A stretch of DNA of 64,000 nucleotides from Minisyncoccia bacterium (GTDB lineage: Bacteria; Patescibacteriota; Minisyncoccia; UBA6257; JAAZHW01), in assembly GCA_041550235.1 (NCBI GenBank), contig JBFEPE010000001.1, forward strand, positions 8,003 through 72,002, in the 5' to 3' direction. Shown here one piece after another: positions 58,599-63,870 of the stretch; within the stretch, counting starts at the first letter, position 1; each line of letters starts with the position of its first letter. Under the pieces are notes generated by a model, which saw only the letters and a program-made list of their open reading frames with translations, was not told the DNA's origin and searched no databases. Both the position numbers and the translations under genes were made by a program.

Positions 58599-58859
58599 GA
58601 TATCTATTGACAAAAAATAAAATATGATTATAATGAGGGGACTTTTTGATTTTTTGACAAAATAATTAATTTGTCCCCTTATTAGGGCTGATAATCGCCC
58701 CAATTATCTTGTGATTTTAAATAAAAATAAGATAAATTAATAAAAGATTAATTTTAGAACCCATTGCTTTTTGCGGGTTGTTTTTGTTCTCATTTTTTAT
58801 TTTATTGCTTGAGGCTGTGGATAAGTGAAATAGAAGGTAAGAACAAGTATAACTGCGAT

Positions 58860-59060
58860 TAGGAATAGGCGAGCATGATGCTTCCTGTCACCCCTGCGAA
58901 GGCAAGGGTCTAAATAAATGGCAAGTGAGTGGTAATAGTGAGGTTGAGATTCCCGCCTTCGCGGGAATGACAAAGAAGAAATAGGAATGACAAAGGAGAG
59001 AGGATGACGCCCCCTCCTGTCGCCTCCGCGAAGGCGGAGGTCTAAAGAAAAGAAAGTAAG
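58860..59060. repeat. GC-hairpin repeat array
   Basis: cacccctgcgaaggcaagggtc, cccgccttcgcgggaatgacaa and cgcctccgcgaaggcggaggtc. Confidence 0.7.
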
Positions 59061-59193
59061 GACTGAATTAAAAATTGAATATAATCTATTTTAGGATTTG
59101 ATTGAGGTAAGGTGGAATAATAAAAAACGGAGGTGGCAATTATCAATTTATTAATTGCCATTTATCCTCCAAGGTTGCCTGTTGTTGATATCA

Positions 59194-59490
59194 CTAATTT
59201 TTAATTTTAAATTCGATTAATAATCCTTTTAGACTATCCTCATCAATTTTAGCAAATCTTAACTCGTCAGATTCAAGGTATTTCAAATGCAAACGAAGAT
59301 TCAAAACATTAGTTGAGCAAGAATCAGTTTTAAAGCTCACAAGAGATAATCCCTCACAAGATTTTCCATAAACAAGAAATGGCACCCATCCATTTATGAA
59401 TTTGCGACTATGATTAATTGCAATAACTATATCACCATCTTCTAAATTCTCTAGTTTCTTAAAATATTTGTCTTCTACTTCTATTGTCAT
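59194..59490 (-). CDS. Hypothetical protein (98 aa) inserted between rpsI and rpoB
   Basis: Preceded on the minus strand by TTGACA-N15-TATAAT and SD aggagg. No family recognised. Confidence 0.45.
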   Translation of the reverse strand: MTIEVEDKYFKKLENLEDGDIVIAINHSRKFINGWVPFLVYGKSCEGLSLVSFKTDSCSTNVLNLRLHLKYLESDELRFAKIDEDSLKGLLIEFKIKN

Positions 59491-59536
59491 GCCTACCTCC
59501 TGAAATCAGATTATAATAGAGAAATTGTTTTGTCAA
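59491..59536 (-). promoter_or_regulatory. Promoter/RBS cassette (TTGACA-N15-TATAAT-ctgatttcaggaggt-ATG), copy 1
   Basis: Reverse complement of 59491-59536. Near-identical copy at 63677-63722. Confidence 0.55.
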
Positions 59537-59539
59537 TGG

Positions 59540-59823
59540 GGAGATTCCCGCCTTCGCGGGAATGACAAAGAAGAATGGAATAAAAATAAATCAAATAATC
59601 CCTCCCCCCGCCTTCGGCGGGGGGAGGGGATAAGGAAGAAACAGGAACGACACCTCTCCCGTGTCACCCCCGCGAAGGCGGGGGTCTAAAAACCAAGGGA
59701 AACACGATGAGAATTGTTGAGATGCCTGCCTCCGCAGGCATGACAATAAAATATTTAAATAATACCCGCCTTCGTTAAAATAGAATATCCGCCTCTGGCG
59801 GACTATGGCGGGCGAAGAAAAAT
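59540..59823. repeat. GC-hairpin repeat array ending at the rpoB start
   Basis: cccgccttcgcgggaatgacaa, ccccccgccttcggcggggggagggg, cacccccgcgaaggcgggggtc, gcctgcctccgcaggcatgac and ...ctatggcgggcgaagaaaaatATG. Confidence 0.75.
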
Positions 59824-62800: not shown

Positions 62801-63081
62801 CGGCTTATGCTTTGCAAGAAATGCTCACTGTAAAATCAGATGATGTGATGGGAAGGGTTTCTGCTTATGAGGCGATTGTCCGAGGGCAAAAGTTTAGCCC
62901 ACCAAATATTCCAACTTCATTTGATGTATTGATAAATGAGTTGAAGAGTATGGGGTTGAATGTTGAACTTATTGGTGGAACGAAAAAGTTTTTTGATGAT
63001 GATAAGGGAGCGAGAGGTGAGGTAAATGAGATAAGGGGAGAGGCATCAGAAGCATTTTCAGAAGACTCCGAAAGAGAGTAG
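59824..63081 (+). CDS. rpoB: DNA-directed RNA polymerase beta subunit
   Basis: Conserved blocks throughout (GTFIINGVERVVISQ, HRTHYGRICPIQTPEG, NMQRQAV, GGQRFGEMEVWAL). 1085 aa. Confidence 0.95.
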   Translation: MAKKIKVFSSEPDVLEGLKNLPNLCEIQLNSYNWLIKKGFKDLFKEVFPISDYTGNELEIDFDGYFLDQPKFDEISSKEKRLTYEAPLRVNFKLTDKKSKRETKQEVYFGDFPVMTDRGTFIINGVERVVISQIVRSSGLYFTAEMLKGRKHFGAKIIPDRGAWLEFSTGLDRAIYVKIDKKRKIAVSALLRIFGLDSDEKILEAFKGTDIGEVSFIEKTIKKDASKNEEEAFMEIYRRIRPGDLATPESAKSLVEAMFKRDDRYDLSDVGRYKLNQRLGMGDKNNSRQLTIEDLIEVVKIIIESNNDRTKEPDDIDHLGNRRVRAVGEVLLSRIRVGLMRLRRVVQDRMSTYDRETLMPTQLINIRTVMAVVDEFFNTSQLSQFMNQENPLSELEHKRRMSATGPGGLNRKRAGFEVRDVHRTHYGRICPIQTPEGANVGLVSHLSCFSRLNDFGFIETPYFKVENGVITKKLEYLNAWEEENYYIASAGFKKDKNNKITGKEVGGRYKGIPGFYPTSKIQFSDVSPFQIFSIATGLVPFVDHNDANRALMGSNMQRQAVSYVLSQAPLVGTGMEEKAAVDSGQTLVSKDAGEVTEVDANHVKIKNKNGKLKLYNLHNFKRTNQDTCLSQRPIVKVGQKVKEGQVLADSLMTDNGALALGQNLLVAFLSWGGSNYEDAIVLSERVVQEDRFTSMHIEDFYCDVRDTKLGPELTTLDIPNVSLERLKNLDEEGIVRVGAEVGSGDILVGKISPKGETDLTAEERLLRAIFGEKARDVKDTSLTMKHGKRGRIVGIRIFSRENGDKLEPGIIKRIQIQVAQMRRVLAGDKLAGRHGNKGIISKIVPVEDMPYMEDGTPVDIILNPLGVISRMNLGQILETHLGLAASKLGYRAVTPVFAGATEDEIRKELKTAGFPEDGKVVLYDGQTGRAFDQRVVVGYQYMLKLNHMVETKIHMRSIGPYSLITQQPLGGKAQLGGQRFGEMEVWALQGYGAAYALQEMLTVKSDDVMGRVSAYEAIVRGQKFSPPNIPTSFDVLINELKSMGLNVELIGGTKKFFDDDKGARGEVNEIRGEASEAFSEDSERE

Positions 63082-63202
63082 TTATTCTTTAAAAATTAAA
63101 AATCAGATTTCAGGATTTTTTCAGGAGTGGGTTGGTGGGGAAATAAAAAAGGGCAGAGGTTGCTTTTTCTCAAAGCAACATGCCCGGTGAATACGAGATT
63201 AT

Positions 63203-63676
63203 TTAATTTAAAAAATTAAAAGATATTTCGATCTCGGATACCTCTGATAATTCCAATTTGGTGAGACCACTAAAGAAATTGATTAAGGCCAAAGATGGTC
63301 TTTCACATTCATGTCCCAATTTGATTTGTCTTTTCCAAAACCTTCTCTTCTCTAATACCTCTTCAATATGATAGATGTTGTGATAGACCTTATGCTCAGT
63401 TCTTTCAATGACCTTGAGAACTCTTTTCAGATGACCGCCTTCGGGAAATGTGATAATTAACCCCTTATGCATTTTTTCTTTATTAACCATTTGCCTGTAC
63501 TTAATCATTTTTTCGTAGTCGCATAAATATTGAACGATGCAATAAATTGGAATTTCATTATAAGATGAAACAAGGTCGGCTGTTTTTGCCTCAACTAGTT
63601 CATAAAACACGGCACCATTTTCATCAGGCTCCATCTTCCTTAGTTCAAGATTAAGAAATTCTTCTTTTTTACCCAT
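63203..63676 (-). CDS. Hypothetical protein (157 aa) inserted between rpoB and rpoC
   Basis: Same promoter/RBS cassette as 59194..59490. No family recognised. Confidence 0.45.
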   Translation of the reverse strand: MGKKEEFLNLELRKMEPDENGAVFYELVEAKTADLVSSYNEIPIYCIVQYLCDYEKMIKYRQMVNKEKMHKGLIITFPEGGHLKRVLKVIERTEHKVYHNIYHIEEVLEKRRFWKRQIKLGHECERPSLALINFFSGLTKLELSEVSEIEISFNFLN

Positions 63677-63722
63677 TGAAACCTCCTGAAATTAGATTAT
63701 AATAAATAAATTATTTTGTCAA
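63677..63722 (-). promoter_or_regulatory. Promoter/RBS cassette, copy 2 (TTGACA-N15-TATAAT-ctaatttcaggaggt-ATG)
   Basis: Reverse complement of 63677-63722. Confidence 0.55.
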
Positions 63723-63729
63723 TAATATA

Positions 63730-63870
63730 AGCCCTCCTTCGTCCGCCTATGGCGGACTTCGGCGAGGCAAAGTCGTAAATATAATTAGCCACCCTCCTTC
63801 GTCCGCCTATGGCGAACTTCGGCAGGGCAAAGCCCGCCTTCGTTAAAACTTCGGCGAGGCAAAGAAAAAT
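63730..63870. repeat. GC-hairpin repeats ending at the rpoC start
   Basis: Two copies of ctccttcgtccgcctatggcg(g/a)acttcgg(c/g)gagg, then cccgccttcgttaaaacttcggcgaggcaaagaaaaatATG. Confidence 0.75.

What the first reader, a model, noticed from the sequence alone, without database searches (positions are those of the whole stretch)
58600..63870. Two unrelated minus-strand genes with near-identical portable promoter/RBS cassettes inserted between rpsI-rpoB and between rpoB-rpoC
rpoB and rpoC are normally contiguous and co-transcribed. Here an ~790-bp gap holds a minus-strand 157-aa gene (63203..63676). A 98-aa minus-strand gene (59194..59490) sits upstream of rpoB.

Both are preceded by TTGACA-N15-TATAAT-c(t/a)(g/a)atttcaggaggt(a/t)...ATG with about 85% identity over 45 nt, and both are flanked by GC-hairpin repeat arrays. 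This suggests a mobile promoter-gene cassette, or hairpin-repeat-mediated insertion, that has split the rpoBC operon.
Basis: seen in the sequence. Interest (0 to 1): 0.55.

Follow-up and report, generated by a model that had tools for sequence, protein, structure and literature searches.

The report
Swappable orphan-gene cassettes splitting rpoB-rpoC
In an uncultivated Paceibacteria-type (CPR) bacterium, the normally contiguous RNA polymerase genes rpoB and rpoC are interrupted by small self-contained units (promoter, ribosome-binding site, orphan gene, terminator) whose conserved ends stay in place while the gene between them differs among close relatives, much like the shuffling cassettes known from T4-type phages.

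Summary
Two unrelated minus-strand ORFs (98 aa, 59194-59490; 157 aa, 63203-63676) each follow TTGACA-N15-TATAAT-CTrATTTCAGGAGGT. The two copies are 37/42 identical, unique in the window, and 0 are expected by chance.

Relatives with 71-74% identical RpoB have rpsI-rpoB-rpoC with empty spacers, so both genes are insertions.

Three sister assemblies (about 4-5% DNA divergence in rpoB) carry the same 5' module, up to 53/53 identical, in front of different orphan ORFs at the same site. A second conserved 3' module follows each terminator. Against one sister, homology breaks exactly at the inner edges of the two modules. The 98-aa unit is missing in that sister, and in the window it is bracketed by a perfect 35-nt direct repeat.

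My best reading is moron-like or PeSL-like cassettes, exchanged by homologous recombination at their promoter and terminator modules. The mechanism is inferred, not shown.

The GC hairpins occur genome-wide and belong to several families, so they are not specific to the cassettes.

The rpoC-side module also reads TTGAAA-N16-TATAAT toward rpoC, which makes it a candidate bidirectional promoter.

The cargo function is unknown: every library search and structure prediction failed.

I rate this a new variant of a known kind, of moderate interest.

The parts
58599..58835 (+). Ancestral rpsI-rpoB spacer. It holds the presumed rpoB promoter (TTGACA-N16-TATAAT, 58607-58634) and the 5' leader, now about 1.0-1.2 kb from the rpoB ATG.
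   Evidence: It aligns with the rpsI-rpoB spacers of L014, L015 and L016 and with L004:1-177, which is 90% identical.
58883..59050 (.). Left GC-hairpin array of REP-like units in both orientations (families D3 and D4).
58946..58980 (+). Left copy of the perfect 35-nt direct repeat GAGATTCCCGCCTTCGCGGGAATGACAAAGAAGAA that brackets the 98-aa cassette.
   Evidence: D3, 100% identity, spacing 595 nt. One search finds only these two copies in the window at up to 3 mismatches.
59045..59128 (-). 3' module of the 98-aa cassette, a diverged copy.
   Evidence: 77% identical to L006:7867-7955, which follows an unrelated 99-aa gene. Alignment A3.
59119..59170 (-). Intrinsic-terminator-like hairpin plus U-run of the 98-aa gene.
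   Evidence: the fold is followed by GUUUUUUAUU on the minus strand. There is no U-run on the + strand.
59194..59490 (-). 98-aa orphan ORF (cargo A).
   Evidence: Only a self hit among 5.8 billion proteins. No family hit.
59491..59540 (-). 5' module A: -35 at 59531-59536, -10 at 59510-59515, SD AGGAGG at 59496-59501.
59541..59575 (+). Right copy of the perfect 35-nt direct repeat.
59576..59823 (.). Right hairpin array, plus the rpoB-proximal leader hairpin motif (CCCGCCTTCGTTAAAA...GGCGGGCGAAGAAAAATATG) with a nested extra hairpin.
   Evidence: The relative's version lacks the nested hairpin.
59824..63081 (+). rpoB (1085 aa).
   Evidence: Pfam domains.
63085..63156 (-). 3' module B, adjacent to the rpoB stop. 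It contains an inverted degenerate copy of the -10-to-SD segment.
   Evidence: Conserved in L004, L006, L001 and L002 behind different ORFs.
63141..63185 (-). Intrinsic terminator of the 157-aa gene.
   Evidence: -18.8 kcal/mol, z = -4.8, followed by UUUUUUAUUU on the minus strand only.
63203..63676 (-). 157-aa orphan ORF (cargo B), a real protein-coding gene.
   Evidence: Homologues at 89% and 79% identity. dN/dS is 0.32-0.45. A remote 158-aa homologue at 32% identity lies in another genomic context.
63677..63727 (-). 5' module B: -35 at 63717-63722, -10 at 63696-63701, SD at 63682-63687.
   Evidence: It is 53/53 identical to L006:7462-7514, which precedes an unrelated 99-aa gene.
63676..63703 (+). 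Candidate rightward (rpoC-directed) promoter TTGAAA-N16-TATAAT. It overlaps module B, making the module potentially bidirectional.
   Evidence: 11/12 match. The same arrangement is present in L006 and L001.
63732..63870 (+). rpoC leader repeats. They include a 28-nt unit that also occurs, exactly identical, three times at 21741-21832.
   Evidence: (D7, D9).
63871..64000 (+). 5' end of rpoC, cut by the window end.
   Evidence: It matches the rpoC of L006.

Best explanation
Each small gene is an autonomous, moron-like expression cassette. In order it has one or more GC hairpins, a sigma-70-type promoter, a short 5'UTR with a perfect SD, an orphan ORF, an intrinsic terminator, and a conserved 3' module.

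The 5' module is about 50 nt and the 3' module about 60-85 nt. Both are shared by cassettes with unrelated ORFs in this genome and in its close relatives.

I propose that the modules act as portable homology arms. Homologous recombination between modules would replace, add or delete the 'ORF + terminator' segment. The recombining partner could be incoming DNA, another copy in the same genome, or an excised circle that carries one repeat. This would happen at a few permissive intergenic sites, here the rpoB 5' leader and the rpoB-rpoC spacer, which behave as a small hyperplastic region.

The cassettes lie antisense to rpoBC. Their terminators work only in the cassette direction, so rpoB-to-rpoC read-through should remain possible. 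The rpoC-side module may in addition supply rpoC with its own promoter.

Shown: the architecture, the insertion relative to more distant relatives, the cargo turnover with breakpoints at the module edges, and purifying selection on the 157-aa cargo.

Inferred: promoter and terminator activity, the recombination mechanism, and any function of the cargo.
For: - The two 5' modules are unique in the window and 88% identical over 42 nt.
- The same module sits before five different ORFs: the 98-aa and 157-aa genes, a 64-aa gene in L004, a 99-aa gene in L006, and an 'MDEET...' gene in L001.
- Window versus JBFFCO: rpoB is 96.3% identical, and homology runs through the 3' module to 63156. It resumes at 63681-63727, the 5' module. 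The terminator and ORF between those points are unrelated.
- rpoB dS between the two genomes is 0.173, yet the rpoC-side module is 53/53 identical.
- Module variants follow position, not cargo.
- The 98-aa unit and its arrays (about 920 nt) are absent in JBFFCO. In the window the unit is bracketed by a perfect 35-nt direct repeat that occurs nowhere else in the window.
- More distant relatives have empty spacers.
- Both cassettes have hairpin-plus-U-run terminators on the minus strand only.
- The 157-aa gene has dN/dS of 0.32-0.45, and a homologue at 32% identity lies in a different context. That locus has two cassettes that share a promoter of their own.
- The PeSL precedent for this mechanism is described in PMC2839356 and PMC4122927.
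Against: - Only two or three copies per genome are visible, and all those with this module lie next to rpoB or rpoC. That is a thin basis for calling it a 'family'.
- The 15-nt spacer is suboptimal for sigma-70, and CPR promoter rules have not been tested.
- No clean empty site with a single copy of the 35-nt repeat was found. The sister genome has other hairpins at that position.
- There is no direct evidence for recombination intermediates.
- The placement of the 98-aa unit rests on a single assembly, and other assemblies break inside the hairpin arrays.
- The pattern scans found the module in only one GTDB species representative and in no JGI metagenome or IMG/VR contig.
Confidence: 0.6

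Rival explanations
1. The cassettes are moved by a site-specific recombinase or a transposase. The conserved 5' and 3' modules would be its recognition sites or terminal inverted repeats, giving an integron-like or MITE/transposon-like element rather than plain homologous recombination.
For: - Conservation has sharp boundaries.
- The 3' module contains an inverted degenerate copy of the -10-to-SD segment, about 18/21 matches, and this recurs in all copies (I3, 89).
- A 35-nt direct repeat brackets the 98-aa unit.
- Two tyrosine recombinases are encoded in the window.
Against: - The nearest recombinase gene is more than 14 kb away. One of the two sits next to tRNA-Thr as an ordinary island integrase.
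- No transposase or RAYT family appeared in the Pfam scans of the window ORFs.
- The inverted repeat is only weakly significant for each copy (0-18 of 300 shuffles reach the observed score), and it is not at the ends of the conserved modules.
- Each cassette has its own promoter, unlike integron cassettes.
- 35 nt is too long for a typical target-site duplication.
Confidence: 0.15
2. There is no dedicated mobility. The module is conserved because it is a functional regulatory element, either the rpoC promoter or an operator for a common regulator. It would have been duplicated once to the rpoB leader, and the different ORFs arrived by unrelated illegitimate events.
For: - The rpoC-side module reads TTGAAA-N16-TATAAT toward rpoC, and it is 53/53 conserved across a dS of 0.17.
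- Copy number is low, and the copies are confined to the rpoBC region.
- The promoter at 874 and a stretch of the rpoB leader (58655-58673) resemble the -35 and spacer part (I7, 94).
Against: - Breakpoints fall at module edges on both sides, which independent illegitimate events would not reproduce.
- A second conserved module follows the terminators, including at sites not adjacent to rpoB.
- Promoter variants and ORFs are reassorted.
- The rpoB-side copy lacks a good rightward -35 (sequence; not listed).
Confidence: 0.15
3. The ORFs are not the functional product. The strongly promoted antisense transcripts would instead regulate rpoB and rpoC through transcriptional interference or antisense RNA.
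For: Both units are convergent with, or antisense to, the rpoB leader and the rpoB-rpoC read-through. The 98-aa ORF has no homologue at all. Both structure predictions were low-confidence.
Against: - The 157-aa ORF has dN/dS of 0.32-0.45 and a protein-level remote homologue.
- A perfect SD sits 5-8 nt before each ATG, and the ORFs are intact in all copies.
- The terminators stop the transcripts before they enter rpoB.
Confidence: 0.07
4. The arrangement is an assembly or binning artefact, that is, chimeric joins at repeats.
For: Several assemblies break inside the hairpin arrays or at the module. The upstream placement of the 98-aa unit is seen in a single contig.
Against: - rpoB-3' module-157-aa gene-5' module is recovered 100% identically in an independent Logan contig.
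- rpoC-hairpins-module-gene is recovered in GCA_041548905.1 and in the JBFFCO MAG.
- rpoB-cassette is recovered from SRR15144438.
Confidence: 0.03

Closest known systems
PeSLs (promoter-early stem-loop regulatory cassettes) of T4-type phages (Arbiol et al. 2010, PMC2839356; Comeau et al. 2014, PMC4122927)
   Same: - Both are composite motifs of a GC stem-loop, a consensus sigma-70 promoter, an SD and a start codon, placed directly upstream of ORFans.
- The motif is repeated in front of unrelated genes.
- Insertions, deletions and replacements between close relatives are bounded by the motifs.
- Both lie between conserved core genes.
- The proposed mechanism is homologous recombination between motifs. 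It could pass through a circle, which fits the 35-nt direct repeats around the 98-aa unit.
   Different: - This is a cellular CPR chromosome, not a phage.
- Only 2-3 copies are seen, against about 50 per phage genome.
- Here there is a separate conserved 3' module after the terminator.
- The cassettes are antisense to an essential host operon.
- There is no experimental evidence here for promoter or terminator activity or for mini-circles.
Putative mobile promoters (PMPs; Matus-Garcia et al. 2012, PMC3488235)
   Same: Highly similar upstream regions lie in front of non-homologous genes, both within and between genomes.
   Different: The PMP definition is purely about upstream similarity (50-100 nt, at least 80% identity). 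Here the intragenomic pair reaches 88% over 42 nt but only 77-78% over 53-65 nt. Here there is also a conserved 3' module, and there is evidence that the ORF is what gets exchanged rather than the promoter.
Phage morons (own knowledge: Juhala et al. 2000; Hendrix et al.)
   Same: Both are an autonomous unit of promoter, ORF and terminator, inserted between two genes that are adjacent in relatives.
   Different: The context here is not a phage or prophage. Morons do not usually share conserved flanking modules.
Integron gene cassettes
   Same: Both involve small, mostly orphan ORFs exchanged as units at a fixed locus.
   Different: Here each cassette has its own promoter and terminator. No adjacent IntI and no attC-type palindrome were seen. 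The orientation is opposite to the flanking operon.
REP/REPIN-type intergenic palindromes (for the hairpin arrays)
   Same: Both are short GC-rich palindromes found in intergenic DNA, in both orientations and as inverted doublets (I2, I5). There are many copies.
   Different: No RAYT gene was seen in the window. There are several sequence families, and one of them forms 5' leaders that end exactly at ...GAAGAAAAATATG of housekeeping genes.
Symmetry-based bidirectional promoters (Warman et al., bioRxiv 10.1101/2020.01.31.928960)
   Same: In module B the -10 hexamers overlap on opposite strands, with -35-like boxes on both sides (TTGACA leftward, TTGAAA rightward).
   Different: The hexamer offset predicts TSSs about 21 bp apart, which is not the favoured 18-bp class (my coordinate arithmetic; for the rule). 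This has not been tested.

Membership tests
PeSL-type regulatory cassette | A repeated motif that contains a consensus sigma-70 promoter. | tested here: met
   TTGACA and TATAAT are exact in all seven close copies. The spacer is 15 nt, which is suboptimal.
PeSL-type regulatory cassette | A stable stem-loop that is part of, or directly adjacent to, the promoter. | tested here: met
   Hairpin 59544-59563 lies 7 nt outside the -35 of module A, and hairpin 63741-63757 lies 18 nt outside the -35 of module B. A GCGAAGGCGGG half-site lies upstream of most copies. The hairpin sequence itself is not conserved between copies.
PeSL-type regulatory cassette | An SD and the start codon of an ORFan at the 3' end of the motif, within a variable region between core genes. 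| tested here: met
   The cargo genes are orphans. Variability among relatives is shown.
PeSL-type regulatory cassette | Resides in a T4-like phage genome. | tested here: not met
   The flanks are rpsI, rpoB and rpoC of a Paceibacteria-type genome. There are no phage matches.
PeSL-type regulatory cassette | Demonstrated promoter and terminator activity, and mini-circle formation. | not testable with these tools
   This needs reporter assays and outward-facing PCR.
Putative mobile promoter (PMP) | Upstream regions of non-homologous genes. | tested here: met
   BLASTP between the two proteins gives E > 1. The cargo differs in relatives.
Putative mobile promoter (PMP) | At least 80% identity over 50-100 nt (PMC3488235 abstract). 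| tested here: inconclusive
   The intragenomic pair gives 77% over 53 nt, 78% over 65 nt and 88% over 42 nt. The intergenomic comparison of the window 157-aa module against the L006 99-aa module gives 100% over 53 nt.
Moron | Own promoter, ORF and terminator, inserted between genes that are adjacent in relatives. | tested here: met
   All are sequence predictions only.
Moron | Located in a phage or prophage genome. | tested here: not met
   As for PeSLs above.
Integron gene cassette | A promoterless ORF followed by an attC recombination site. | tested here: not met
   Each unit has its own promoter. No inverted repeat internal to the 3' modules was reported. No dedicated attC model was run.
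Integron gene cassette | An adjacent IntI integrase with attI and Pc. | tested here: not met
   There is no recombinase within 58-64 kb. The tyrosine recombinases found in the window lie at 27749-28660 and inside the 30-50 kb island.
REP/REPIN (hairpin arrays only) | Short intergenic palindromes in many copies, often as inverted doublets. | tested here: met
   30 GC hairpins in the window. Doublets I2 and I5.
REP/REPIN (hairpin arrays only) | A cognate RAYT (Y1 transposase) in the genome. | tested here: inconclusive
   None appeared in the Pfam scans of 39 window ORFs. The rest of the genome was not available.

The most novel reading that the evidence does not exclude
The rpoB-rpoC spacer and the rpoB leader of this CPR lineage would form a chromosomal 'hyperplastic region' that works like the PeSL system of T4 phages. 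A bidirectional module doubles as the promoter of essential rpoC and is therefore kept invariant. Together with a 3' module it would provide a permanently protected landing pad. Strain-specific orphan genes, possibly factors directed at RNA polymerase or at phages, would then be swapped in and out by homologous recombination after DNA uptake.
Probability: 0.3. Interest if true: 0.65.

Novelty: new variant of a known kind. Interest (0 to 1): 0.5.

Why it matters
rpoB and rpoC form one of the most conserved gene pairs in bacteria. A site of rapid orphan-gene turnover inside that pair is unusual.

If recombination at conserved promoter and terminator modules is confirmed, modular shuffling of the kind described for T4-type phages would also operate in the tiny genomes of CPR bacteria. 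That would offer one route by which these organisms gain and lose strain-specific genes.

It would also provide conserved 'handles' for capturing such genes from metagenomes, either by PCR or by sequence search.

The candidate bidirectional module additionally suggests how an essential gene can keep being expressed after its operon has been interrupted.

Tried and rejected
- **Function of the cargo.**
  - Pfam, PADLOC, PHROGs, NCBIfam, PDB sequence search and phage tblastn gave nothing significant.
  - The weak Hint-module hit for the 98-aa protein (E = 0.059, below the cutoff) was dismissed.
  - Both AlphaFold2 models had pLDDT of about 39, so no fold search was run.
  - The representative-library search gave one spurious low-complexity hit (P0005) and one real remote homologue (P0006).
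- **Known RNA families.** Rfam found nothing above chance in either intergenic region.
- **An sRNA at 58607-58810.** I first read this as an independent sRNA gene. I rejected that because it aligns with the rpsI-rpoB spacers of relatives, so it is the rpoB promoter and leader.
- **A small + strand ORF after rpoB** (GTG at about 63127). Rejected, because it is not conserved in L004.
- **The metagenome and viral hits to the promoter pattern** (L011, L012) fall inside a phage coding region with no -35 box. They are chance matches.
- **Integron reading.** Rejected (see the membership test).
- **A phage or prophage origin for the region.** No support was found.
- **Identifying the source genome.** Exact look-ups of the window proteins returned only a 4-kb Logan contig or nothing, and cluster look-ups gave no accession or organism name.
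- **Literature.** Searches for CPR-specific reports on SD or leaderless usage, or on rpoB-rpoC insertions, found nothing relevant.

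
Full report
**1. What is in the sequence**

The window is low in GC (about 25-44% per kb) and comes from a CPR/Paceibacteria-type genome. The closest GTDB hit is a 'Candidatus Paceibacteria' MAG, and the RpoB homologues are Patescibacteria/Parcubacteria. The 23S rRNA gene spans 4.4 kb and so carries insertions.

The gene order at the right end of the window is as follows:

| Feature | Coordinates | Strand |
|---|---|---|
| rpoA | 55080-55955 | + |
| rplQ | 55965-56318 | + |
| rplM | 56281-56709 | + |
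| rpsI | 56784-57251 | + |
| 430-aa family-less protein | 57306-58598 | + |
| 98-aa ORF | 59194-59490 | - |
| rpoB | 59824-63081 | + |
| 157-aa ORF | 63203-63676 | - |
| rpoC (start only) | from 63871 | + |

The rpoB-rpoC gap is 789 nt.

**2. The promoter/RBS pair is real and not chance**

- In gene sense the two upstream regions read TTGACAAAACAATTTCTCTATTATAATCTGATTTCAGGAGGT (59536 to 59495) and TTGACAAAATAATTTATTTATTATAATCTAATTTCAGGAGGT (63722 to 63681).
- They are 37/42 identical: 24/27 across the -35, spacer and -10, and 14/15 across the UTR and SD.
- With up to 3 mismatches, no other copy of the whole motif or of either half exists in 64 kb. Shuffles give 0.
- The two proteins are unrelated.
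- One caveat concerns the spacer. The -35/-10 spacer is 15 nt, whereas the two other perfect TTGACA/TATAAT promoters in the window have 16 nt. For this reason the 16-18-nt scan did not list the cassette promoters.

**3. Full anatomy of a cassette**

- Downstream of each ORF there is a hairpin followed by a U-run on the minus strand only. For the 157-aa gene this is -18.8 kcal/mol, z = -4.8, then UUUUUUAUUU. For the 98-aa gene the hairpin is followed by GUUUUUUAUU.
- After the terminator comes a second conserved stretch, the 3' module. Its consensus is TTTTTTATTTC.C.CATCAACCCACTCCTrAAATCCTGAAATCTGATTTTTAATTTTTAA, sometimes with an extension.
- The 3' module is found after both window genes (63085-63156, and a diverged copy at 59045-59128). 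It also follows unrelated genes in relatives.
- It contains an inverted, degenerate copy of the -10-to-SD part of the 5' module (ATTAaAATCagATTTCAGGA against ATTATAATCTAATTTCAGGA). This is only weakly significant per copy (I3, 89), so I treat it as an observation and not as proof of terminal inverted repeats.

**4. Comparison with relatives**

*(a) More distant relatives.* Three contigs encode RpoB that is 71-74% identical. All three have rpsM-rpsK-rpsD-rpoA-rplQ-rplM-rpsI, then about 190 nt, then rpoB, then 10-140 nt, then rpoC. Neither spacer contains a gene.

Window 58599-58835 aligns with those rpsI-rpoB spacers. It is therefore the ancestral rpoB promoter and leader, with a perfect promoter at 58607-58634. 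The 98-aa unit lies inside the rpoB 5' leader. The 430-aa gene lies between rpsI and that leader.

*(b) Close relatives.*
- In the JBFFCO01 MAG, rpoB is 96.3% identical in DNA, with dS = 0.173 and dN/dS = 0.02.
  - The rpoB-adjacent position holds a 64-aa ORF behind the same module (L004).
  - The rpoC-adjacent position holds a 99-aa ORF (L006) behind a module that is 53/53 identical to the window's.
- Window-to-L004 homology runs from rpoB through the 3' module to 63156. It resumes at 63681-63727, the 5' module. The terminator and ORF between those points are unrelated.
- In GCA_041548905.1 (L001) a 156-aa orthologue, 89% identical to the window's 157-aa protein, lies next to rpoC. A second copy of the module follows and drives yet another gene, 'MDEET...'.
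- In SRR15144438 (L002) the 157-aa orthologue lies next to rpoB. Its module is of the variant seen before the 64-aa gene. Module variants therefore follow position and not cargo, which points to reassortment.
- The roughly 920 nt that contain the 98-aa unit and its hairpin arrays (about 58836-59756) are absent in JBFFCO.
- In the window the 98-aa unit is bracketed by a perfect 35-nt direct repeat at 58946-58980 and 59541-59575, and this repeat occurs nowhere else in the window. Integration of a circle at a resident repeat would leave this pattern. So would a duplication.

**5. Are the cargo genes real?**

- The 157-aa gene shows dN/dS of 0.32-0.45 among three orthologues.
- It has a 158-aa homologue at 32% identity on another contig (L013), next to a DUF6119 gene and not next to rpoBC.
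- That locus holds two orphan cassettes that share a promoter of their own, TTGACAAATATATATTTTTATG. Promoter sharing among orphan cassettes therefore recurs in this group.
- The 98-aa ORF has no homologue at all. Its coding status rests on the promoter, SD and terminator context.
- No cargo protein matches any family, defence model, phage family, PDB sequence or phage genome. Both structure predictions were unusable.

**6. The hairpin arrays**

- GC-rich palindromes of the CCCGCC-N3/4-GGCGGG type occur 30 times in the window, nearly all in intergenic DNA. Eight of them cluster at 58949-59802.
- The units that flank the 98-aa cassette occur in both orientations and as inverted doublets, which is REP/REPIN-like.
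- The array before rpoC belongs to a different family. One 28-nt unit there is also present in three exact copies before the class II aminoacyl-tRNA synthetase gene (D/K/N-type) at 21843. Related hairpins precede rpsI and rpoB, and each ends at ...GAAGAAAAATATG.
- The hairpins are thus a genome-wide feature, not part of a cassette-specific mechanism. The one possible exception is the 35-nt direct repeat.

**7. Consequences for rpoBC**

- Neither cassette terminator looks like a terminator on the + strand. Read-through from the old rpoB promoter and from rpoB into rpoC is therefore plausible, though it would run head-on against the cassette promoters.
- The rpoC-side module also reads TTGAAA-N16-TATAAT on the + strand at 63676-63703, an 11/12 match. 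The two -10 boxes overlap. The same arrangement is present in L006 and L001.
- This is a candidate bidirectional promoter that could supply rpoC. It would explain why the module is invariant across a dS of 0.17.
- It does not fall in the favoured 18-bp class described for E. coli, and it is untested.
- The rpoB-side module lacks a good rightward -35.

**8. Interpretation and comparison with known systems**

The best-supported reading is a moron-like cassette whose conserved 5' and 3' modules serve as homology arms for modular shuffling.

- The closest described system is the PeSL of T4-type phages: a stem-loop, a consensus early promoter and an SD before ORFans, with indels between close relatives bounded by the motifs and a proposed circle intermediate.
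- The PeSL sequence-level features are met here. The phage context is not, and the activities cannot be tested with these tools.
- The 'putative mobile promoter' concept also applies, although the intragenomic pair falls just short of its threshold of at least 80% over at least 50 nt.
- An integron reading fails on every feature tested.
- The rival explanations are a site-specific recombinase or transposase, a static regulatory duplication, an antisense-RNA function, and an assembly artefact. They are listed separately with evidence and confidence. The artefact is unlikely, because the key junctions recur in independent assemblies.

**9. Verdict**

Insertion and cassette portability hold. However, the promoter looks like the resident handle and the ORF like the mobile part, and the hairpins are mostly a general genome feature.
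- Novelty: a new variant of a known kind, namely PeSL/moron/mobile-promoter-type cassettes in a cellular CPR chromosome inside the rpoBC operon.
- Interest is moderate at 0.5. The location is unusual and the comparative signal is clean. On the other hand, copy number is low, the taxonomic range is narrow, and both the mechanism and the cargo function remain inferred.

Noticed in passing
window 58599-58835: A perfect promoter (58607-58634) is followed by a leader of about 170 nt that ends in a weak hairpin and a T-rich run. The stretch is conserved in the sister MAG and aligns with the rpsI-rpoB spacers of relatives. It is probably the ancestral rpoB promoter, leader and attenuator, now displaced about 1.2 kb from rpoB. 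It has no Rfam match.
   Followed up: partly
window 57306-58598: A 430-aa ORF with an N-terminal hydrophobic segment and a Cys-rich repeat region has no Pfam or NCBIfam family. It is inserted between rpsI and the rpoB leader, a position that is empty in relatives.
   Followed up: partly
window 21741-21842; also 56714-56783, 59765-59823, 63833-63870: A GC-hairpin leader motif ends exactly at ...GAAGAAAAATATG in front of a class II aminoacyl-tRNA synthetase gene (D/K/N-type; Pfam tRNA-synt_2), rpsI, rpoB and rpoC. At 21741-21832 the unit CCCGCCTTCGTTAAAACTTCGGCGAGGC is tandemly triplicated with a 32-nt period. It may be a shared translation or processing signal, or a repeat that targets start codons.
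   Followed up: partly
whole window (upstream 30 nt of about 50 ORFs): Housekeeping genes mostly lack an SD, and many have TATAAT-like boxes 5-10 nt before the ATG, which suggests leaderless mRNAs. The genes with a strong GGAGG that I tested individually (977, 1265, 3190, 5759, 10946, 24692, 54403, 59194 and 63203) all lack any Pfam family. In this window, orphan genes thus seem to carry a different translation-initiation signature from core genes.
   Followed up: partly
window 874-1621: A third perfect promoter (TTGACAAATTATTTATTTATGCTATAAT) resembles the -35 and spacer of the cassettes. It drives a two-gene orphan operon (93 aa and about 113 aa, both with an SD) directly after ftsA.
   Followed up: partly
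window ~27650-50600: A low-GC (22-31%) island lies next to tRNA-Thr (27651-27725) and a tyrosine integrase (27749-28660). It carries defence-type genes: an N6-methylase/Eco57I-like RM protein of 792 aa, GmrSD, a UvrD-like helicase, Schlafen/AlbA_2, GIY-YIG, PIN, a KAP NTPase and a second integrase.
   Followed up: no
window 29418-29539: A LOOT RNA (Rfam RF03000, 86.6 bits) lies at the edge of that island.
   Followed up: no
window 15016-19428: The 23S rRNA gene spans 4413 nt against a 2925-nt model, so it carries about 1.5 kb of insertions, with ORFs at 16764-17135 and 17409-17756. A GC hairpin lies at 18438-18471.
   Followed up: no
window 50780-53915 (-): Upstream of rpoA lie rnpA, yidC, a DUF218 gene and a KH/R3H (Jag-like) gene on the minus strand. 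Relatives have rpsM-rpsK-rpsD there. The ribosomal-protein cluster is therefore rearranged in this lineage as well.
   Followed up: no
L013 1-3040 (Logan SRR15144438): Two orphan cassettes (158 aa and 103 aa) share their own promoter stretch, TTGACAAATATATATTTTTATG. Each is preceded by GC hairpins, and they flank a DUF6119 gene. This second, independent case of promoter sharing includes the remote homologue of the 157-aa cargo.
   Followed up: partly
L006 2280-2890 and 3266-3610 (JBFFCO01 MAG): Further small orphan genes (165 aa and 78 aa) have hairpins, a TTGACA promoter, an SD and a terminator, but different promoter sequences. One lies directly downstream of rpoC. The moron-like architecture is general in this genome.
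   Followed up: no
window 59782-59803: The rpoB-proximal leader hairpin carries a nested extra hairpin (TCCGCCTCTGGCGGA) that is absent from the otherwise identical leader in the sister MAG. This suggests that the small palindromes insert into one another.
   Followed up: partly
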